The notes under the pieces were generated by a model. It was not told the origin of the DNA and did not search any database. It saw only the letters and a list, made by a program, of their open reading frames with translations. Shown here piece after piece: positions 5,004-41,711 of a stretch of DNA of 64,000 nt (position 1 is its first letter; each line of letters begins with the position of its first letter). The translations under genes were made by a program, and so were the position numbers. Origin of the DNA: Pelagomonas calceolata (lineage: Eukaryota); contig CAKKNE010000005.1 in the NCBI GenBank assembly GCA_918797485.1, forward strand, positions 3,100,001 to 3,164,000. Direction: 5' to 3'.

Positions 5004-6419
5004 ATGTGCCGTAATGCGACGCCAGCCGAGCTCGAACTGGTCCACAAAGAGGACGACGTCACGACGATCCTCGTCGACGACGACAAATGGGACGAGCTCG
5101 CGAGCGACACGCCGCAGGGAGCGTACTCGCGCAAGCCGATCATGACACTGTGTTTTGCGATGTTCGCGAACAGTGTGGCATTGACGAACGTATTTCCGTA
5201 CGCGGGCTTTATGATTCTTCATTACGGCCTCACTGAGGACGAGACCCGAGTCGGCTTCTACGCTGGTTACTTGATGACGTCCTTCATGGCCGGGCGGCTG
5301 CTGTCGTCGTTCTACTGCGGCGCGCTGTCGGACCGCATCGGCCGCAAGGCGGTCATACGGATAGGGCTCTGGAGCTGTCTCGTGTTTTCGATAGGATTCG
5401 GTTTTTCCCCGACCTTCGCGATCGCGCTATCCATGAGGCTGTGTATGGGACTGTTCAACGGCCTCACGGGAGTCGCCAAGGCGGCAATACCGGAAATTGT
5501 ACCGAAGGGTCCCGAGCAGCAGACGGCCATGGGCTACGTAGCAGGTATGTGGAACGCGGGCATGGTCGTCGGCCCGGCCGCGGGCGGCGTGCTCGCCGAG
5601 CGCCCGGTCAATAGTCTGTTCCGGCGATATCCGTATGCGTTGCCAAATATTTTCGCCGCGGGCCTCGCGCTGCTTGCGCTGTGTGTCATCGAGGCCTGGC
5701 TGCCGGGGAAGACGTCGTACGCCAAGATCAGCGACGAAGATAAGGACGAGGAGGAGCCGGCGCCGCGCCGAGCGTGCGCGCGCGCGCCGCGGACGTCGTG
5801 GCTGCCCATCGGCGTCTACTGTTTCCTGTCGACGTTCAGCATCTTCTACGAGGACTGCTACCCGCTCTGGCTGCTGACACCTCGCGACGAGGGAGGCATG
5901 GGCATGGCTGTGGATGAGATCGGCGCCGTTCTGAGCGCTACCGCGGTATTTACGGTGGCTTATCAATTTCTCATATTCCCCTTTATCTCGGAGCGGATGC
6001 CGTCGCATATTTTGTTCCCAACGTCAGCCGGACTCTCGGCAGTACTGATGCCTGTAGCTGTCGTCATTGCTAGGATGAAGCCCGGCGCGGCGACGACGTG
6101 GGCTGCATTGATCGCTCACAATATCGTGTACCGTTGCGCGGTCTCCAACGCTTACACAGCTTGCTTCTGCACGATCAACAATTCCTGCGCGACCAATGCG
6201 CGCGGTGCCGTCAACGGCTTCGCGATGAGCGTCGCGTCGGCGTTCAAGGCGGTAGGGCCATCCATGGGCGCGTCGATGTACGCCTACGGCCTCGATAAAG
6301 CGCCCAACGGCGGCGTCGGCGTGCTGGCCGTGTTCGGCGGCGTTGGAGCGGCTTTAGGCGTGACGGCGTTGGTCGCCTGCAAGTACATGGGCGCGGAATA
6401 CGACACGCCCCTCGATTGA
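5004..6419 (+). CDS. MFS transporter (ZIFL-like)
   Basis: About 12 hydrophobic segments; motif A GALSDRIGRKAVI; VGPAAGGVLA; YPYALPN. Confidence 0.9.
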   Translation: MCRNATPAELELVHKEDDVTTILVDDDKWDELASDTPQGAYSRKPIMTLCFAMFANSVALTNVFPYAGFMILHYGLTEDETRVGFYAGYLMTSFMAGRLLSSFYCGALSDRIGRKAVIRIGLWSCLVFSIGFGFSPTFAIALSMRLCMGLFNGLTGVAKAAIPEIVPKGPEQQTAMGYVAGMWNAGMVVGPAAGGVLAERPVNSLFRRYPYALPNIFAAGLALLALCVIEAWLPGKTSYAKISDEDKDEEEPAPRRACARAPRTSWLPIGVYCFLSTFSIFYEDCYPLWLLTPRDEGGMGMAVDEIGAVLSATAVFTVAYQFLIFPFISERMPSHILFPTSAGLSAVLMPVAVVIARMKPGAATTWAALIAHNIVYRCAVSNAYTACFCTINNSCATNARGAVNGFAMSVASAFKAVGPSMGASMYAYGLDKAPNGGVGVLAVFGGVGAALGVTALVACKYMGAEYDTPLD

Positions 6420-22493: not shown

Positions 22494-22554
22494 ACCGAAG
22501 TAATCATCGGGCCCGCCACCCGGGAGTGGGGGCGGCGGACCGTCATCGCTCGGC
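22494..22554 (-). promoter_or_regulatory. SECIS element of the GPx gene
   Basis: Minus strand GCCGAG cg AUGAC GGUCCGCCGCC cccacucccg GGUGGCGGGCC CGAU gauuac UUCGGU: AUGA/GA core, 11-bp helix II, helix I; starts 16 nt after the stop. Confidence 0.8.
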
Positions 22555-22570: not shown

Positions 22571-23247
22571 CTAGAGTAACTCCTTGATCGCCGCGGCGAG
22601 ATCGACGCCTGAGGCATCACTCACCTTACCGTCCTTGGACACGAGGAAGCTTCCGCCGAAATTCCACGTCGGCGGCGACGCGCCGCTTTCGAACTGCATG
22701 GCCTGCCAGGCCTCGCGGTCGCCGAGATTTTTCTTCTGCAGCAATACTCCGCGGGGCGGCTGCGGGAAGTTCACGCGTCCGTAGGCGAAATCTCGGATTG
22801 CCTCGTCGGTGGGGAGTTCCTGCCCGCCGAACTCGCCCGTCGGGAAAGCCAGGATTGCTAAATCGTCTCCGAACTCGGCGCTGAGCGCGGCCATCGTTTT
22901 GTACGACGACCGCGTCCGGCCTCAGGCGGAGGCGACGTTTTGCGCGAAGCAGACTTTGCCCTCGAACTGCGAGAACGAGACCTGCGACGAGACTGTCAGA
23001 ACACGTCGACGGCGTTTGCTGCACAGGAATGCACAGCGCTGCCGTCCGTCGCGACGTCCTCGAGGTCGTAGAAGGCCGCGCCTGCGTAAAAATTCGTTTG
23101 CTACCAGTGACCGCCGTCAGCCTCCGCGCCATCGACCAGTCCTACGCGTCGAATTTCGATTCATGCGATCGTTTAGGCAACCAGCACACACTGCACACTG
23201 CAAACTGGACGCTGCAACGCACGGCTTGCGCCACCGCGGACGCTCAT
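22571..23247 (-). CDS. GPX: Selenocysteine glutathione peroxidase (Sec TGA at 22922-22924); exons 22571..22981, 23035..23081 and a short uncertain first exon
   Basis: AAFYDLEDVATDGSA|VSFSQFEGKVCFAQNVASA-TGA-GRTRSSY...ILAFPTGEFGGQE...PTWNFGGSFLV; the TGA is at the catalytic NVASxUG position; SECIS downstream. ATG 23247 is tentative. Confidence 0.88.
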
Positions 23248-34729: not shown

Positions 34730-35344
34730 CTTTGTCTATGTATGAGTGTTTCGTTCGCGCCGCGCGCTTTGCGCCGCAGTGGCTGGCAAGCAGTTTTGCC
34801 CTGGACAGCGCTGCAGCGGCGCGGCGGCCGTCGTTGGCGTTAGGTAGTGGTCAGTGGCAGCGATGGCAACAACTACGCCTACTCAACGACCGCAACAAAG
34901 GTATGCTGGGTTACGCCGCAGCAAATAAGCTTGCGCGACTGCGCCCCGGCTTGCTAGTGTCTTACTGCCGCTAGCCTTCGGAGGGCTCGTTTTCTGTTTG
35001 GAGCTCTCTTTTCTAGGCATTTGAAGGCATGAATGCAATCGATTTGCGGCCAGCAGCAGGTCGCGGCGCTCGAATTTCAGCTTTTTTGGCCGGCGGCACA
35101 GGGCCATTGTGCAATCACTGTGCAGCATTTGACGCTTCGAACACAGCTGGTTGCAGTAATTTATCACAATAAAGCTGCTGCACCCGTCAAAAAGCTGCGA
35201 CGCACCGCTACAGTAGCCCCAGGCAAGCACAGCCCACCCAAGCTGCTGAGCGCGGCGCGACAGCAGCACGCGCAGCGTTGCGGTGGAAGCAAGCACGCGA
35301 ACGCAGCAGCACGCGAACGCAGCAGAGCAAGCACAGCATCGGCC

Positions 35345-36802
35345 ATGCGACAGCGCCGCAAGTCCCAGAGCATCATACGAGGCCGCGACCTGCTCCTCAT
35401 AGGACTCATCGCGACCTGCGTGCTGCATTTGTACGTCGTGACACAGACGCACCACCAAGCAGCCGAACCGGAAGACATCGTCGAGATCGAGCTCTACCGA
35501 GGAGAAACCCCTCCTGCCGGCTACGTGGGCTACTACTGCCAGTCCGACGGCGTCAAGTGCCACACGGAAACGCACAAGTGCTGGGACTCGGCGATCTGCG
35601 CCGAGGTGCCAGCAGAGCGACGACCACCACCACCACAAAAAAAGAAGAAAGTCATCGCCTACGCCATCTCCGTGACCGGCGACTCGCCGGGCTGGAACGG
35701 CATCGACGGCGCCGCGGTGTTGGGTCATTCTGCCGTACGAGCACATAGAAACTCGTCGTACGACGCCGCGCTCGTGGCCTTCGTGTCGCCTTCAGTCTCA
35801 GAAGCAGGACGACATAAGCTGGAGAAGGTCGGGTTTCGAGTCCTGGAGAAGAAGCTGCCGGTCGAAGTAGAAGAGATACAAGGTAAGTTACTGAGGGAGA
35901 AGATTTCCAGTAATGGGTGCTGCGGCGCGTGGGAACTGCTGAAGTTGTACGCGTGGACCCTGACGGAGTATCATAGGGTAGTCCACTTAGATGTAGATAG
36001 CTTGGTGCTCCAGAACTTTGATGAGCTCTTCGACGATGACCCCACGGTGGGGGGCGCCGTCCTATCACCTACAGCTATCAGTACAGCCAAAAAAAACTTC
36101 GAGAAGCGCGACACGTCCTTACCAGTATTGGAAGGTATCTACGCCCAGTACACCATGGACTGGAACATGGCCCAAAGACCGTGGGGTAGTAATCCCCCGG
36201 TCCAGGGCGGTTTTGTGATTGCGAGGCCCTCTCTAGTTGTATATGAGGAGATGGTTGCTATCGTGCGGAAAGGAGACTTCCAAGGTGGCTGGGGCGGGAC
36301 GCGGGCCGGCGCCTTCTACGGCGGCATGACTATACAAGGCTTGCTACCTTACTACTTCATGCACTACCGACCCGGGACTGGTCGGGAAGTTCGGGGCTGC
36401 GTCTACAACAACATGGCCTCGAACCCAAGAAATGTCGGAGGCTTCGGCAAGGGCGACTGCCGGGACGGGACCGTGCCTCCCGCGTCAGGGGCGTACACCG
36501 GCGATATTAACAAAGGAGACTGCGAGGACTGCCGGTTGTCGCGCGTCGAGGACGTGAAGGTCGTGCATTTTACGATCTGCCAGAAGCCCTGGGAGTGCCA
36601 CGGCACTTCGACGTCGTGCTACTACTGCAAGATCTGCAACCAGTTTCATAGGAAATGGTTCGAGATCAGGGAGGAGCTGGAGCGGGAGCGCGGCGCCTAC
36701 CAATCGGAATTGTACGCCCACGGCAAGACGCCGGCTCGTCGAAACATGTGCCGGTCCTACAATAGGGCGGGCTACATCCCGATCGATGTGAGTAAACTGT
36801 GA
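35345..36802 (+). CDS. Glycosyltransferase family 8 (glycogenin-like), type II membrane protein
   Basis: N-terminal TM; LLKLYAWTLTEYHRVVHLDVDSLVLQNFDELF (DxD); VVHFTICQKPW. Confidence 0.88.
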   Translation: MRQRRKSQSIIRGRDLLLIGLIATCVLHLYVVTQTHHQAAEPEDIVEIELYRGETPPAGYVGYYCQSDGVKCHTETHKCWDSAICAEVPAERRPPPPQKKKKVIAYAISVTGDSPGWNGIDGAAVLGHSAVRAHRNSSYDAALVAFVSPSVSEAGRHKLEKVGFRVLEKKLPVEVEEIQGKLLREKISSNGCCGAWELLKLYAWTLTEYHRVVHLDVDSLVLQNFDELFDDDPTVGGAVLSPTAISTAKKNFEKRDTSLPVLEGIYAQYTMDWNMAQRPWGSNPPVQGGFVIARPSLVVYEEMVAIVRKGDFQGGWGGTRAGAFYGGMTIQGLLPYYFMHYRPGTGREVRGCVYNNMASNPRNVGGFGKGDCRDGTVPPASGAYTGDINKGDCEDCRLSRVEDVKVVHFTICQKPWECHGTSTSCYYCKICNQFHRKWFEIREELERERGAYQSELYAHGKTPARRNMCRSYNRAGYIPIDVSKL

Positions 36803-36812
36803 TTAATACTTA

Positions 36813-36868
36813 TAGCTTCAGTCGCGGCCCACACCATGTTAGGAGTGTGGGCCGGTCACGTAGAACTA
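36813..36868 (-). promoter_or_regulatory. SECIS element of the cysteine synthase-ACP-Rdx gene
   Basis: Minus strand UAGUUC uac GUGAC CGGCCCACAC uccuaacaug GUGUGGGCCG CGAC u GAAGCUA: UGA/GA core with a perfect 10-bp helix II; begins at the TAG stop, about 220 nt after the in-frame TGA. Confidence 0.82.
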
Positions 36869-38494
36869 AAAATGGGACGCGATGGCGGCGGCGAGCGTCG
36901 CCCTACGACCAGGTGTGTCCACGAAGCCGTAGGGCGACAATACTGTCTCCTCGGTACCACATACAAGAGTCACGCGGAACGCGCCAGTCATACCACTTTC
37001 GACAAACCCTTCAACCACCAAACCCTCGAAGAGCGACGCCAGGAAAGCTTTGAGAGCTTCGAACTGGGCGCCGAAGAGCGGGTCTCAGCCGCCGCAGTAG
37101 GCTACCCTTATCACACAACCATCAGGCGCCTTACCGCCGTGGAACGGCGCGTCGTCCGCATCCAGCCTCAATAGAACCCTTGCTAAATCGCGCACCGACC
37201 CCAACAGCGCCACCTTCAATAAAGCTACTTTTGCCCCCGGCATTTGAGAATCGCGGCCCGCTAATGCCAACTTCCCCAGCAATCGCGCCGCGGTGAGCGA
37301 CGAGGCCCCGAGGTCCTCGAGGCGCGCCTCCACCGGTATGTTTTCGCAGTTGAGGAGCTCGGCGGCCATCCTCGCGAGCTCATTCTCGAGCGCGCGGCGC
37401 GTCTCCACGACCGGATCATTCGATGAATGCACTGATGGCTCTGGTCGGGAGAGGTCTTGGAGTTTCCGCAGCTCCCTCCCATCGTCCACCACAACATCAG
37501 TGAGGCCGAGCTCCGCCTCCGCTTGTCTCCGGTGCGCGTCAAAGAGCGGGTGCGTGAGGTAGCGCTCCCCTGCTGAAGGTAAGATAACGACGACGCGCTT
37601 GCCTTCGCCCAGCTCCGACGCGACGTCCCGCGCCACTCTGAGCGCCGCGCCCGACGACGGCCCCGCCAATACCCCATCTCGCATGGATACGGCGCGCGCC
37701 TCGTCCAACGCATCAGCCAGGGAGCAGCTCCGGAATTCATCAACTTGGACCCGTTGGCCTTCGTCTGTTTCATCTTTATTGCACACGAACGCGAGAGGTA
37801 CACCTGCTCCAATACCCGTGACTCCATGCCCGTTGTGGTGCACTCCACCAGATAAAGTTCGGGAGAGCTCGGGCTCCACTACCACAATTTTCGGAGGTTG
37901 TACACCACTCTGCGATGCGAGGGACCGTAGAGCTCTTGTAATACCAGAGGCCGTGCCGCCCGTGCCCGCGCCCAATACAACAGCGTCCAGCCTCCCACCA
38001 CACTGGCGCCAGAGCTCCGGTCCCGTCCCATTTAAATGTGCTTCCGCATTACAGGGGTTCGAGAACTGAGCCGTGTAGTAGGCCCGGTCTCCCAAAGCTT
38101 CAGCGGCCTTTTTGGCCAGCCGCAGCATCCCCTCGGCGCCTTCGTTCGGCTCACTTAGTAGTACAACACCACCGTACGCTTTGATGAGCGCGTACCTTTC
38201 GACATTCGTGCACACGCGCGGCATACTTACAACACACCCATAACCTTTGGAGGCGGCGACCATGGCTAATGCTATACCAGTATTGCCGGAGGTGGCATCC
38301 ACTAGCACGGAGCCCTTCCTCAACAACTGGCGCCGTTCCGCGTCCTCCACGATAGCTAACGCTGCTCTATCCTTGACCGAGCCGCCGGGGTTGAGGAATT
38401 CGAGTTTTGCGAGGAGTTCGGCGCTGTTTGACTGGAGGCGCAGCAGCGGCGTCCTTCCTATTAAATCTGTGATGCTGGAGGCGATGTCCTCCAT
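36866..38494 (-). CDS. Cysteine synthase (PLP) / acyl-carrier-like / SelW-Rdx fusion selenoprotein, 542 aa, Sec470 (TGA 37085-37087)
   Basis: CysK motifs KLEFLNPGGSVKDR, ATSGNTGIAL, GAGTGGT, GPSSGA; carrier-like LEDLGASSLTAARLL; then IRVAYCGG-U-DPLFGAQFEALKAFL...GMTGAFRVTL...GFVDT...LAAAIASHF-TAG. Confidence 0.85.
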
Positions 38495-38784
38495 TTTATG
38501 AACTACGGCATGGCTCGGCTATGGGCAGCCCATATGGCTGTCGAGCGCTCGAGCGCTCTGCACTTCAGGCAAGCGCTCTGCGGCCTCTCACGCGGCGATT
38601 TCGGGTTTTGCAGGTCCGCGCGCAGGCGTCAGGGGGCAGCCCCGCGACGGCTCCGCCCCCATGGAATAGTCCTCGGACCCGGCACGTGGGGGTCGGCGAC
38701 AGCGCCGGCAAGTGCAAAGCAGTTTCACCTTCGCTGCGAAGTGGCTTATTAGCGGCGAGCGAGGCAGCGCAACTTGCAGCGAAG

Positions 38785-39846
38785 ATGCAGGAGCCGACGG
38801 CGGCCGCCATCGGCGAGGTCCAGGCGGCCTTCGGCGCCGACCCGGTAGCAGCGATGTGCCTGTACAAGGCCAGGAGCACCCTCCAAGATGGCCTCTGCAC
38901 CAAACTGAGCTTCCCGAACACGCCGGAGCACGGCGAGACCGTCGTGGACGAGCCGCCGACGATGCCGGGCGGCAAAGACGCGGGGCCGAACCCCATGGAT
39001 GTTTGTCTTGGTGCTCTGGCGACGTGCCAGGAGATCTCGTACAAGGCCTTTGCTACCGTGATGGGGATTGAGGTCAAATCCGTGGCTTGTTCTGTGGAGG
39101 GCGAGCTCGACTTGCGTGGCTTTCTCGGTGTGGACGAGAGTGTAGCGAAAGGGTTCACGAAGATCACCGGTACGGTGACCGTGGACGCTCCTGATGCCTC
39201 CCAAGAGCAGCTGGACCAGCTCAAGGGCGCCGTGGACGCCCACTGCCCCATGTGCGATTTCCTATCCGGCACATGCACGCTGACGTTAGACGTTAAAACG
39301 CAAGCTCCCACGGATGCCACGCGCGACGACGGTTCACTAAGCGCGCAAGCCATCGGGGAGCTCGGCGCTGCGTTGGGCGCGGACCCGTCGGCCGCCCTGT
39401 GCACGTACAAAGCGTCCTCGAAACTCGAGAAGGGCCTCGCGTCCTCACTCACTTACCCGAACACGCCGCACCACGGCCCCTACGCGACGGACGAGCCCCA
39501 ATCGATGCCCGGCGGCCAGAACACGGGCCCGAACCCCATGGATTTGGTGCTGGGCGCGCTGACGACGTGCCAGGACATCACGTACAAGGCCTACGCGACG
39601 GCGCTAGGCATTGATGTGCAAAGGGTCGAGACGGCTTGTGAAGGAGACCTGGACCTGCGCGGCTTCCTGGGTGTCGACGAGGCCGTGCGGAAGGGCTTCC
39701 AAGTCATAAGAGGCACGGTGACGCTCACGACGAACGCTGATGAAGCGACGATCACAAAACTCAAGGGCGCGGTCGACGCCCATTGCCCGATGTGCGCGAC
39801 GATTTCCGACAAGATTCCCGTCTCCTTGACGGTCGTGAAGGCGTGA
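38785..39846 (+). CDS. Tandem double OsmC/Ohr-family protein
   Basis: Two ~170-aa repeats, each DEP..MPGG...GPNPMD..LGAL.TCQ.I.YKA...EG.LDLRGFLGVDE...LKGAVDAHCPMC with both catalytic Cys. Confidence 0.9.
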   Translation: MQEPTAAAIGEVQAAFGADPVAAMCLYKARSTLQDGLCTKLSFPNTPEHGETVVDEPPTMPGGKDAGPNPMDVCLGALATCQEISYKAFATVMGIEVKSVACSVEGELDLRGFLGVDESVAKGFTKITGTVTVDAPDASQEQLDQLKGAVDAHCPMCDFLSGTCTLTLDVKTQAPTDATRDDGSLSAQAIGELGAALGADPSAALCTYKASSKLEKGLASSLTYPNTPHHGPYATDEPQSMPGGQNTGPNPMDLVLGALTTCQDITYKAYATALGIDVQRVETACEGDLDLRGFLGVDEAVRKGFQVIRGTVTLTTNADEATITKLKGAVDAHCPMCATISDKIPVSLTVVKA

Positions 39847-40040
39847 TGGCACGCGACGAGCCCCCCTTCCCTGCTTGCGGAACGCCAATATGACGCGTGC
39901 CGGCGCTTTCTGGGAAAGTGCCGGGACGCCGAGGAAATCCAGAATCGTTCCCTCTCACCGCGGGACTGCCTTACAAAGGGTAGTCTAACCCCGCGGTGGC
40001 GCTTCGCCCGCCCGCCATAATACTAGTCTGAATGAATAGG

Positions 40041-41711
40041 TTACTTATACCACTCCCTCCTCAATAAGAGCTGGGAGAAGGCCCAGTCCCCCAATATCAC
40101 TGCTAAACCACCGGCGACGACGGACGCCGTGATCGCCCGCGGCACGTCCCGAGGGGCTAGGTCCGCTCTCCGGGAAATAATTTCCGCCACGACGACGATC
40201 AACGTGATGTAGACCAACGCTTTGAAGACGTTGTGCGCGGGCGGCCACGTCGCCAATTCCACAAAATTACGGTAGAAGGACCATTCATGTGAACATCGTA
40301 ATGGAGGCAACAACGCGTCCTTCACGCCCTCGAAATACCAGCTCTCGTCGATGTCGTCACCCAGACCGTAGATCCGCGCGACCGGCCCGCCTATACACAC
40401 GGCTAGCAACGACCCGAGCGCGGTCAAGACCGGCGCCGCGGCCCACGCCGCCACCAGTGAAGGCAGTAGGGACCACGATCTCGGAGAGCGCCCCAGCGTC
40501 TTGAGGAGCTTGTTCTGCGCCGTGGCCTGCATCGTGGCCACTTCACCAGCGTAACTCCCGCCTAATCTTCCACTCAACAACAGAGCTGCTAACAGTGGTC
40601 CTAACTCAATAACAAAGAGCTTCGCCAGGCCCTGCGCATAGAGAACTCGTTTCGCTTTAGGTAACGCAGACCTAACCATGCCCTGGGCCTTGCCTTTGAC
40701 GGCCATGCGCGTCATCATCTTTTGTAGGTCCGAGGCTTCTTTGCCCGACAGCAAGTCGACCATCGGTAAAACTTCTTTCTCTAGTATCTGGTCGACCTGG
40801 TCTGTCACATCTAATTTGGCGAGTAAGTCGGCCGTGAGCATGGCGACGGCGACGCCGGCGGCCGCGAACGCCAAAAGTATCAAAGGTAAGGATAGGGCGA
40901 AGTAGTCCACGGTCTTCGCTCGCATGCGAAACAAGACCCGAAACGCGCTTCTACTCCTTACGTCTCCGCGTAGCCAGGCGCAGTAGCGCGCCTTCCGTTT
41001 TATCGTGTCTTCCCGGATGGCTGGTACCAAGGCTATTGATCTAGGTGCGTCGCAGACAAGCTTCACTAAAGCAGGCTGGTGCGACACTAGTAATAAAGAA
41101 GCGCCGTGTTCTCGCCTTAACACTCCTAACTCCTTCGCTACTGCTCTGGCTGCGCGCTCGTCCAATCCGGTAAAGGGCTCGTCTAGGACCACAACGCGTT
41201 TCCTCTGTGCGAGTTGCAATGCTAAAGATGCTCTTCGAGCCATCCCACCGGACAGCTCCTGGGGCATCTTGCGCCCATCCCTCGCCCAGTCAAGGCCCAC
41301 CGCCTCGACGAGTCTTTTTGGTTCCTCTACCGAGTGGACGCCGCACGCGGCCAACGCGTTCGCCACGTTGCCGCCCACGCTCAAGGCATCGACTAACGTC
41401 GTCTGCTGAAATAGAGCACCGACGCGCTCCCGCTTGTCTATGCTGGCATCCCAGTCGACGCTGACGTGGATGCCCAACCGTCTCGCACTGCCTAACCCCG
41501 CGACCTCCGCCGCTAATGTAGTTTTCCCAACACCAGAAGGCCCCTGGAGCCAGACGACCTCGCCCCGCGCCAATTGGAACTTTACTTCTCCATCGTCCCG
41601 GAACGGGCATTTTGATGGATCGACACAACTAGCCGAAACAGTAGCGTAGGGCGCCCGCATTGCCTTCTCGGCGCCGTGCCAGTCCGGGCGGCTGGACCAG
41701 TTGCGGTTCAT
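40041..41711 (-). CDS. ABC ATPase (MlaF/TGD3-like) fused to MlaE/TGD1-like permease
   Basis: GPSGVGKTT, LSGGMARR, VVVLDEPFTGLD, LVSH; then ELGPLLAALLLSGRLGGSYAGEVATM...LKTLGRSP, matching the MlaE signature. Confidence 0.85.
   Translation of the reverse strand: MNRNWSSRPDWHGAEKAMRAPYATVSASCVDPSKCPFRDDGEVKFQLARGEVVWLQGPSGVGKTTLAAEVAGLGSARRLGIHVSVDWDASIDKRERVGALFQQTTLVDALSVGGNVANALAACGVHSVEEPKRLVEAVGLDWARDGRKMPQELSGGMARRASLALQLAQRKRVVVLDEPFTGLDERAARAVAKELGVLRREHGASLLLVSHQPALVKLVCDAPRSIALVPAIREDTIKRKARYCAWLRGDVRSRSAFRVLFRMRAKTVDYFALSLPLILLAFAAAGVAVAMLTADLLAKLDVTDQVDQILEKEVLPMVDLLSGKEASDLQKMMTRMAVKGKAQGMVRSALPKAKRVLYAQGLAKLFVIELGPLLAALLLSGRLGGSYAGEVATMQATAQNKLLKTLGRSPRSWSLLPSLVAAWAAAPVLTALGSLLAVCIGGPVARIYGLGDDIDESWYFEGVKDALLPPLRCSHEWSFYRNFVELATWPPAHNVFKALVYITLIVVVAEIISRRADLAPRDVPRAITASVVAGGLAVILGDWAFSQLLLRREWYK

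What the first reader, a model, noticed from the sequence alone, without database searches (positions are those of the whole stretch)
36813..38494. Hidden selenoprotein: cysteine synthase / acyl-carrier / SelW(Rdx) CxxU fusion
Seen: the ORF track stops at IRVAYCGG-TGA, but the frame stays open for 72 more codons (DPLFGAQFEALKAFLASLFEGLVVEGFVESGMTGAFRVTLVCGTEETVLSPYGFVDTPGRRATLAAAIASHF-TAG), and a SECIS-like hairpin follows immediately. Established: SelW/Rdx proteins begin V.V.YCGxU and carry tGxFEV and GYVDT motifs; these correspond to TGAFRV and GFVDT here, downstream of the TGA. The N-terminal ~330 aa is a PLP cysteine synthase (SVKDR lysine, TSGNTG loop), and the middle resembles a phosphopantetheine carrier. 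Inference: one polypeptide couples a beta-replacement sulfhydrylase, a swinging-arm carrier and a selenol redox domain. It might reduce a persulfide, S-sulfo or selenium donor to feed (seleno)cysteine or thioether synthesis on a tethered substrate. I know of no description of this architecture, but could not search.
Basis: partly seen in the sequence, partly recalled or inferred. Interest (0 to 1): 0.95.

Follow-up and report, generated by a model that had tools for sequence, protein, structure and literature searches.

The report
Hidden selenoprotein: cysteine synthase–carrier–SelW fusion
A marine alga's gene that databases cut short at a TGA codon very likely reads through it as selenocysteine, joining a cysteine-synthase-type enzyme, a swinging-arm carrier domain and a selenoprotein-W-like redox domain in one conserved protein that is predicted to make or move sulfur amino acids on its own tethered arm.

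Summary
Confirmed. One intron-free minus-strand mRNA (38494-36866) runs through YCGG-TGA-DP into 72 more codons, followed by a SECIS-type hairpin. All 17 of 18 homologous loci that cover the site keep the TGA, down to about 35% identity. The post-TGA peptide is conserved with third-position-biased changes. 22 of 28 database homologues end at exactly [YF]CGG, and no Cys form was seen. The domains are a distinct CysK-like PLP clade with a remodelled pocket, a carrier domain with its serine, and a SelW-like domain (weak HMM score here, top structural match mouse SelW). New: a tandem OsmC-like gene (NF041052) neighbours the fusion both here and in one distant lineage, where a second SelW-like selenoprotein gene also sits. 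Most likely mechanism (inferred, about 40%): a persulfide on the pantetheine arm attacks the PLP aminoacrylate, and the CxxU domain reduces the mixed disulfide to release cysteine. Not found in six literature searches, but the key Aureococcus selenoproteome papers and one supplement could not be read. This scan noted the same fusion earlier in another genome (e1-9762709). Sec insertion and activity are untested.

The parts
36866..38494 (-). Fusion gene CDS, 542 aa with TGA read as Sec, plus TAG stop; no intron
   Evidence: stranded RNA reads cover 36808-38578 with no joints
37577..38473 (-). CysK-like PLP domain (aa 8-306): Lys41 in SVKDR, TSGNTG loop, GTGGT; family-specific A67, R93, Y101, R212, H220, T226, H315
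   Evidence: Pfam PALP E 5e-64; TIGR01139 277 bits, below cut-off 351; residue table; Foldseek CysK top, TM 0.84 over target
37169..37414 (-). Carrier-protein (PP-binding) domain, aa about 361-442; predicted pantetheine site Ser399 (37300-37298) in LGASSL at the start of helix II
   Evidence: PF00550 21.9 bits, cut-off 20.8; best PDB matches are NRPS carrier domains, E 0.002; helices in model; motif in 25 of 28 homologues
36869..37117 (-). SelW/Rdx-like domain, aa about 460-542, with CGGU motif
   Evidence: TIGR02174 matched by 13 of 15 members at E<=1; profile hits MIEN1 and SelW; mouse SelW is the top structural hit (Foldseek E 0.009; VIA Z 7.5, rmsd 2.4, 79 aligned)
37085..37087 (-). In-frame TGA, predicted Sec470
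   Evidence: kept in 17 of 17 loci that cover it, of 18 fetched
36813..36868 (-). SECIS-type element in the 3' UTR: core GUGAC 36859-36855 and CGAC 36824-36821, 11-bp helix II, AA in the loop, about 226 nt after the UGA
   Evidence: RNA 3' pile-ups at 36802 and 36816
38579..38756 (.). Short untranscribed gap between the fusion gene and the OsmC gene (likely shared divergent promoter)
   Evidence: near-zero read depth 38579-38732; plus-strand RNA 5' ends at 38757-38758
38785..39846 (+). Tandem OsmC-like gene (two TCQ...HCP repeats), likely partner; also adjacent to the fusion in distant locus L016
   Evidence: PF02566 x2; NF041052 106 bits, cut-off 95; 42% identical to L016 OsmC

Best explanation
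This is a transcribed, conserved three-domain gene whose in-frame UGA is very likely decoded as selenocysteine, and its product is predicted to be a self-contained persulfide-dependent cysteine synthase with a tethered thiol arm. Steps: (1) The mRNA spans the UGA and the SECIS hairpin without splicing [shown]. (2) UGA is read as Sec, giving a CGGU SelW-like domain [strongly inferred]. (3) Ser399 carries 4'-phosphopantetheine [inferred from motif]. (4) The PLP domain turns a free activated serine, likely O-acetylserine, into the aminoacrylate [inferred from family]. (5) A persulfide on the arm (Ppant-SSH, possibly the selenium analogue) attacks it through a widened, more basic pocket, leaving a cysteine-S-S-Ppant mixed disulfide [hypothesis, by analogy with GSSH use by CysK/CysM]. 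(6) The Sec of CGGU cleaves that disulfide, releasing cysteine and resetting the arm; the linked tandem OsmC dithiol protein may load the arm or recycle the redox domain [hypothesis]. Odds: about 0.95 for steps 1-2, about 0.4 for the whole mechanism.
For: Readthrough: TGA kept in 17 of 17 covering loci of 18, across 33-94% identity and 37-72% GC, once beside an intron. Post-TGA changes at codon positions 1/2/3 are 76/58/195, with 144 synonymous against 82 non-synonymous codons (9 loci against the window). 22 of 28 database homologues end exactly at [YF]CGG. SECIS-type cores follow the stop in 13 of 17 regions by strict scan. In L005 and L014 the same gene ends at a true TGA stop, so TGA is not globally reassigned. 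The window holds a second Sec gene, a GPx with its own SECIS. RNA: 2,736 reads from 4 runs of one sample, no joints, depth 50-128 over the TGA bin. Mechanism: catalytic Lys and TSGNT are kept while the pocket differs from bacterial CysK (P67A 18/18, Q-to-T/V/L 21/21, new R93, R212, H220, H315). P67A and loss of Q227 are the changes that distinguish the more open OASS-B pocket (PMC3805590, passage). Five cysteine synthases turn OAS + GSSH into a GS-cysteine disulfide that needs two electrons to free cysteine (PMC13188885, abstract and section 8). The carrier serine is conserved, canonical GADSL in P0217, P0219 and L012. OsmC is adjacent in two lineages about 40% identical, in different orientation, and no other neighbour is shared.
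Against: No protein-level evidence of Sec insertion, pantetheinylation or activity. The window's Rdx domain is below the Pfam and NCBIfam cut-offs; its structural Z of 7.5 is in the range the tool calls ambiguous. Rfam finds no SECIS. L014 has no canonical SECIS in 330 nt, and shuffles gave a hit in 0-9 of 40 per region. The single-sequence model of the carrier is low-confidence (pLDDT about 48) and matched no solved carrier protein. The residue before Ser is usually T rather than D/H (76 of 87). OsmC linkage rests on one distant lineage; L014, the only other distant locus with over 1 kb on both sides, has different neighbours. The RNA comes from one sample. I know of no precedent for a pantetheine persulfide on a protein arm feeding a PLP enzyme.
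Confidence: 0.42

Rival explanations
1. Same Sec fusion, run in the catabolic or sulfur-delivery direction: the PLP domain eliminates sulfur from cysteine, cystine or an S-substituted cysteine onto the pantetheine arm, and the CxxU domain with OsmC releases or detoxifies it.
For: Same anatomy. The PLP domain is below the curated cut-offs for CysK, CysM, CBS, CapA and SbnA. Distant bacterial OsmC relatives (about 32-38% identity) sit beside methionine gamma-lyase and dmdD, or in a thiol-redox cluster (2 of 3 regions opened).
Against: Best sequence and structure matches are all synthases; Cds1 desulfhydrase scores only 45 bits. The third OsmC region showed no sulfur genes.
Confidence: 0.2
2. A selenium-specific enzyme: the Sec domain reduces selenite or a selenotrisulfide, the arm carries selenide, and the PLP domain makes free selenocysteine or a Se-amino acid for storage.
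For: No Cys-for-Sec homologue was seen. The partner belongs to an OsmC family labelled '(seleno)protein'. L016 clusters a second CxxU selenoprotein gene with a SECIS.
Against: Strict Sec use is common among SELENOW-type proteins in algae (80% Sec-containing; PMC7539508, passage) and says nothing about substrate. Both OsmC proteins carry Cys, not Sec.
Confidence: 0.15
3. A regulatory or moonlighting protein: the PLP domain senses a metabolite or binds a partner, the carrier is a vestigial spacer, and readthrough acts as a selenium-dependent switch between a 469-aa and a 542-aa form.
For: The pocket is remodelled at positions invariant in CysK (M120, Q226). A stand-alone member of the PLP clade without carrier and Rdx exists (P0019). 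Many distant members carry an N-terminal hydrophobic anchor that the window's protein lacks.
Against: The carrier serine motif and all core catalytic motifs are conserved across the family.
Confidence: 0.13
4. A biosynthetic module in which an aminoacyl or acyl group loaded in trans on the carrier is modified by the PLP domain to give a thioether or other secondary metabolite.
For: The carrier's nearest relatives are carrier domains of large multidomain proteins and NRPSs.
Against: No shared adenylation, condensation or PKS neighbour in the loci. The free-carboxylate loop TSGNT is intact.
Confidence: 0.07
5. TGA is an ordinary stop, is spliced out, or is a reassigned codon, and the downstream frame is chance or a separate gene.
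For: All public models stop or splice at this point. The Rdx score is weak and Rfam finds no SECIS.
Against: Invariant TGA inside CxxU, coding-type constraint after it, SECIS-type hairpins, unspliced reads, TGA used as a true stop in L005 and L014, and the only downstream Met is absent from the distant clade.
Confidence: 0.03

Closest known systems
Selenoprotein W / Rdx family (SelW, MIEN1/Rdx12; PF10262, TIGR02174; PDB 2NPB, 2LJK, 2FA8)
   Same: CxxU after strand 1, TGxF motif, (G)F(V/L)(D/S)T motif, same predicted fold, UGA plus 3' UTR SECIS
   Different: Fused C-terminally to an enzyme and a carrier; CGGU-DP variant; below curated cut-offs in this organism
O-acetylserine sulfhydrylase CysK/CysM (TIGR01136/01139/01138; PDB 8SRT, 2Q3B)
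   Same: Fold-type II PLP core, SVKDR, TSGNT, GTGGT; about 41-47% identity
   Different: Separate clade against the 22 bacterial CysK tested (100/99); P67A, R93, R212, H220, Q-to-T/V/L, H315; keeps Gly at the OASS-B R210 position; extra domains
Persulfide- and carrier-dependent cysteine synthesis (CysK/CysM with GSSH, PMC13188885; Mycobacterium CysO/CysM, recalled)
   Same: Sulfur arrives on a carrier; the product is released in a second step
   Different: Here the predicted carrier is a pantetheine arm in cis and the predicted releasing reductase is a Sec domain in cis; no ubiquitin-like thiocarboxylate
Algal selenoprotein fusions (SELENOM-pVHL, SELENOM-ShKT, GST-MSRA; PMC7539508 section 11)
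   Same: A known selenoprotein domain fused to another domain in marine algae
   Different: Those are single-species fusions; this one spans many lineages and joins a PLP enzyme and a carrier; it is not among those listed in the main text
NRPS/PKS carrier domains (PF00550; PDB 4PWV, 2MR7)
   Same: Four-helix layout with Ser at the start of helix II
   Different: No loading enzyme nearby; GATS(L/M) predominates over GxDS/GxHS

Membership tests
Eukaryotic selenoprotein | In-frame UGA conserved at a redox motif with coding sequence beyond it | tested here: met
   17 of 17 covering loci; codon-position bias
Eukaryotic selenoprotein | 3' UTR SECIS with UGAN/NGAN core, helix II and apical A or C (definition: PMC3753652, passage) | tested here: met
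   The 3' core CGAC deviates from the KGAW consensus; Rfam gave no match; SECISearch3 was not available
Eukaryotic selenoprotein | UGA and SECIS on one unspliced mRNA | tested here: met
   (short reads, one sample, continuous depth, no joints)
Eukaryotic selenoprotein | Selenium present in the protein | not testable with these tools
   needs 75Se labelling or mass spectrometry
Eukaryotic selenoprotein | Sec machinery (tRNA-Sec, EFSec, SBP2) in the genome | not testable with these tools
   no whole genome held; a second Sec gene in the window is indirect support
SelW/Rdx family | Score above curated cut-off (PF10262 22.6; TIGR02174 34.2) | tested here: inconclusive
   window 16.6 and 25.0 bits; homologue L013 27.7 passes Pfam, L011 22.1 and L015 19.0 do not
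SelW/Rdx family | SelW fold with CxxU and TGxF | tested here: met
   mouse SelW is the top hit in two structure searches; Z 7.5, rmsd 2.4, 79 aligned; profile alignment
CysK (cysteine synthase A) equivalog | TIGR01139 above 350.95 bits | tested here: not met
   277, 297, 303 and 274 bits for four members
CysK/CysM/CBS PLP superfamily | PALP domain with Schiff-base Lys, TSGNT and GTGGT | tested here: met
CysM / O-phosphoserine-using synthases | Arg at the OASS-B R210 position (PMC3805590, passage) | tested here: not met
   Gly retained in GIG(A/T)G
Phosphopantetheine carrier protein | PF00550 above 20.8 with conserved Ser at helix II | tested here: met
   21.9; P0219 28.1 and P0214 25.5 pass, P0217 18.0 and P0216 do not
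Phosphopantetheine carrier protein | Covalent pantetheinylation by a PPTase | not testable with these tools
   needs an assay or mass spectrometry

The most novel reading that the evidence does not exclude
An undescribed, old family of protist selenoenzymes in which phosphopantetheine serves as a swinging sulfur or selenium arm between a PLP enzyme and a selenocysteine reductase, working with a clustered tandem OsmC protein (and in one lineage a second SelW-like protein). It is a new route of sulfur or selenium amino-acid synthesis in marine plankton and supplies a built-in substrate for a SelW-type domain.
Probability: 0.35. Interest if true: 0.92.

Novelty: new variant of a known kind. Interest (0 to 1): 0.76.

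Why it matters
New eukaryotic selenoprotein architectures are rare. This one is hidden because gene callers stop at the TGA or splice around it: 22 of 28 database homologues end there, and two Aureococcus models skip it. The substrates of SelW/Rdx domains are a long-standing open question (recalled); a fusion that places one next to a thiol arm and a PLP enzyme gives a concrete, assayable substrate. It would also tie the selenium requirement of abundant marine algae to sulfur amino-acid metabolism rather than only to peroxide defence, and would be an unusual use of a pantetheine arm outside acyl transfer.

Tried and rejected
Rfam SECIS search: nothing for the window or 6 homologous loci. MAFFT alignment of 10 SECIS candidates was too poor for covariation counting; only TGA was invariant. 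Viral contigs: 25 pattern matches, none a relative; no match for OsmC. GTDB genomes: 1 weak hit of 40 candidates (L019, E 3e-5, 62 query residues), not followed. These are pattern-seeded searches, so prokaryotic absence is not shown. ESM Atlas: no usable hit for P0012; only generic PALP clusters for P0019. The single-sequence model of carrier plus Rdx gave no carrier-protein match; that half of the model is low-confidence. Cluster look-ups named no organism for the distant clade. Reading the OsmC stop TGA as Sec was rejected: the frame would run through its own hairpin, and both catalytic positions are Cys. Global TGA reassignment was rejected. Gobler 2011 (PNAS) and 2013 (ISME J), the Aureococcus selenoproteome papers, are not held, and the supplement of PMC7539508 was unreadable; either could list the Rdx part, or the fusion, as a SelW entry.

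Full report
Observation. The minus-strand ORF at 38494 encodes 469 aa ending IRVAYCGG before TGA 37087-37085. With TGA read as Sec it continues 72 codons to TAG at 36868-36866. A hairpin follows at once (z -3.42, 0 of 200 shuffles), with GUGAC/CGAC core, 11-bp helix and AA loop. This fits the SECIS description in PMC3753652 (passages read), except that the 3' core is CGAC rather than KGAW. Rfam did not recognise it.

Organism. The closest named homologues are two Aureococcus anophagefferens gene models (P0011, P0122; 64-68% identity over the C-terminal region), so the window is inferred to be a pelagophyte alga. A database protein identical to residues 1-469 is held by NCBI, UniRef, JGI and MMETSP and ends at the TGA (P0174). 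The window also holds a GPx-like gene with an in-frame TGA (22924-22922) and its own SECIS-type hairpin, so the organism appears to decode Sec. No genome was held to check the machinery.

Transcription. Four stranded poly(A) runs of one sample (6-12% of each run read, 2,736 reads laid) cover 36808-38578 on the expected strand. They show no joints or indels at a 3% threshold, depth 50-128 over the TGA bin, and 3' pile-ups at 36802 and 36816, beyond the SECIS core.

Conservation. A metagenome scan gave 18 loci from 71 pattern matches: eight close (best segments 72-94%), two at 63-64%, and eight at 33-44%. Sixteen show contiguous YCGG-TGA-DP, L017 shows it once an intron is removed, and L018 does not reach the site. 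The 72-77 residues after the TGA align with invariant TGxF, P, F, T and R. Against the window, changes in 9 loci fall 76/58/195 on codon positions 1/2/3, with 144 synonymous and 82 non-synonymous codons; these are pairwise, non-independent counts. In L005 and L014 the gene ends at a second, true TGA stop, which excludes a changed code. Of 28 database homologues, 22 end exactly at [YF]CGG. Of 87 stored proteins with a family signature, 78 do; one is the window's own read-through product and 8 end otherwise; none showed a residue between CGG and DP. Two Aureococcus models and one EukProt model skip the TGA yet keep the downstream peptide. A strict SECIS scan hit 13 of 17 regions (L007 and L018 left out); shuffles hit 0-9 of 40. 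L016 was found with a looser core and L015 by eye at 831; L012 is cut by its contig end; L014 has no canonical element.

Domains. PALP aa 8-306, E 5e-64. Four family members fall below all curated cysteine-synthase cut-offs. In a tree of 42 PLP domains, 19 fusion members plus one stand-alone protein (P0019) form one side of a 100/99 branch against 22 bacterial CysK. The tool warned of long branches, and no plant, CysM or CBS sequences were included, so no origin is claimed. Catalytic motifs are intact, but the pocket differs from 111 bacterial CysK: A67 for P (18/18), R93 for E/D (18/18), Y101, R212, H220 (21/21), T/V/L226 for Q, H315. PMC3805590 (one passage read) states that P67-to-A and loss of Q227 mark the more open OASS-B site, and that R210 replaces G230 there; this family keeps the Gly. 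The carrier passes PF00550 as an isolated domain, matches NRPS carriers, and has Ser399 at the start of helix II in the model (mean pLDDT 76.9). The C-terminal domain is below cut-off in the window, but 11 of 15 members match Rdx and 13 of 15 match TIGR02174 at E<=1. L013 passes Pfam, the profile finds MIEN1 and SelW, and mouse SelW tops both structure searches.

Neighbourhood. The gene shares a gap of about 180 nt with a divergent tandem OsmC-like gene. In L016, whose fusion protein is about 40% identical, a 42%-identical tandem OsmC lies immediately downstream, convergent; no other neighbour is shared between the window and the distant loci. Both score above the cut-off of NF041052, 'OsmC-related (seleno)protein', and carry Cys. 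Next to it L016 has a small gene with CGA-TGA and a SECIS-type hairpin, probably a second SelW-like selenoprotein (only a weak profile score). L014 has other neighbours on both sides, L009/L010 have others downstream, and the rest have too little flank. The link is therefore one independent distant case.

Mechanism. PMC13188885 (abstract and section 8 read) reports that five cysteine synthases convert OAS plus glutathione persulfide into a GS-cysteine disulfide that needs reduction to free cysteine. The fusion supplies, in one chain, a PLP site with a widened pocket, a predicted thiol arm, and a CxxU disulfide reductase. I therefore propose arm persulfide attack on the aminoacrylate followed by Sec-mediated release (about 0.4). 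Rivals are catabolic sulfur transfer (0.2), selenium-specific synthesis (0.15), a regulatory role (0.13), modification of an acylated carrier (0.07), and no readthrough (0.03). Only gene structure, transcription and conservation are shown; every chemical step is inferred.

Prior art. Six searches of the held library bore on prior description: selenoprotein + cysteine synthase + fusion + algae, algal selenoproteome terms, selenoprotein/cysteine synthase/SelW/acyl carrier, Pelagomonas + selenoprotein, selenoprotein/O-acetylserine/phosphopantetheine/SECIS and Aureococcus selenoproteome/SelW. Their listings showed no description of this fusion; most papers were seen only as listings. The algal selenoproteome paper PMC7539508 (section 11 and passages read) has no 'cysteine synthase', 'carrier' or 'OsmC' in its main text and lists other fusions; its supplement was unreadable. 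The 2026 prokaryotic review PMC13188914 (passages) has no 'cysteine synthase'. Gobler 2011 and 2013 were not held. An earlier, unchecked note of this scan reports the same fusion in another genome; it is not independent support.

Verdict. It is best filed as a new multidomain variant of SelW-type selenoproteins and CysK-like enzymes, apparently undescribed, with a testable mechanism and a candidate partner gene.

Noticed in passing
window 39890-39933 (+): Strong SECIS-like hairpin (ATGAC...CGAG, 12 pairs, -26.6 kcal/mol) in the 3' UTR of the OsmC gene, which has no in-frame TGA except its stop; lacks an unpaired AA/CC. Relict, regulatory or chance; unexplained.
   Followed up: partly
window 22571-22972 (-), SECIS core at 22546: Glutathione peroxidase-like selenoprotein gene with in-frame TGA at 22924-22922 and a C-rich SECIS-type hairpin (GSHPx E 9e-14).
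   Followed up: partly
L016:5434-5981 (+), hairpin at 6043: Small intron-containing gene with a CGA-TGA (CxxU) motif and SECIS-type hairpin, divergent from the OsmC gene; likely a second, divergent SelW-like selenoprotein.
   Followed up: partly
L002:1890-1917, L003:1830-1857: In two close relatives the normal stop is lost, so the reading frame runs into the 5' arm of the SECIS and ends at a TAA in its loop.
   Followed up: no
L008 (about 1340-1784); P0176, P0185: Close relatives carry an insertion or intron inside the carrier domain that the window lacks; intron presence/absence variation.
   Followed up: no
P0012, P0207-P0209, P0211-P0213, P0218: Many distant members have an N-terminal hydrophobic segment like a signal anchor; the window's protein lacks it, so location may differ by lineage.
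   Followed up: partly
P0019: Stand-alone member of the same PLP clade without carrier or Rdx domain (381 aa).
   Followed up: partly
P0013, P0204, P0205: One cluster ends a few residues before the CGG motif; possibly an intron at that point or loss of the Sec domain. DNA not available.
   Followed up: no
window 40041-41711 (-): ABC ATPase fused to an MlaE-like permease in one ORF.
   Followed up: no
window 35033-36802 (+): Glycosyltransferase family 8 gene, convergent with the fusion gene; the two transcripts' 3' ends nearly touch.
   Followed up: no
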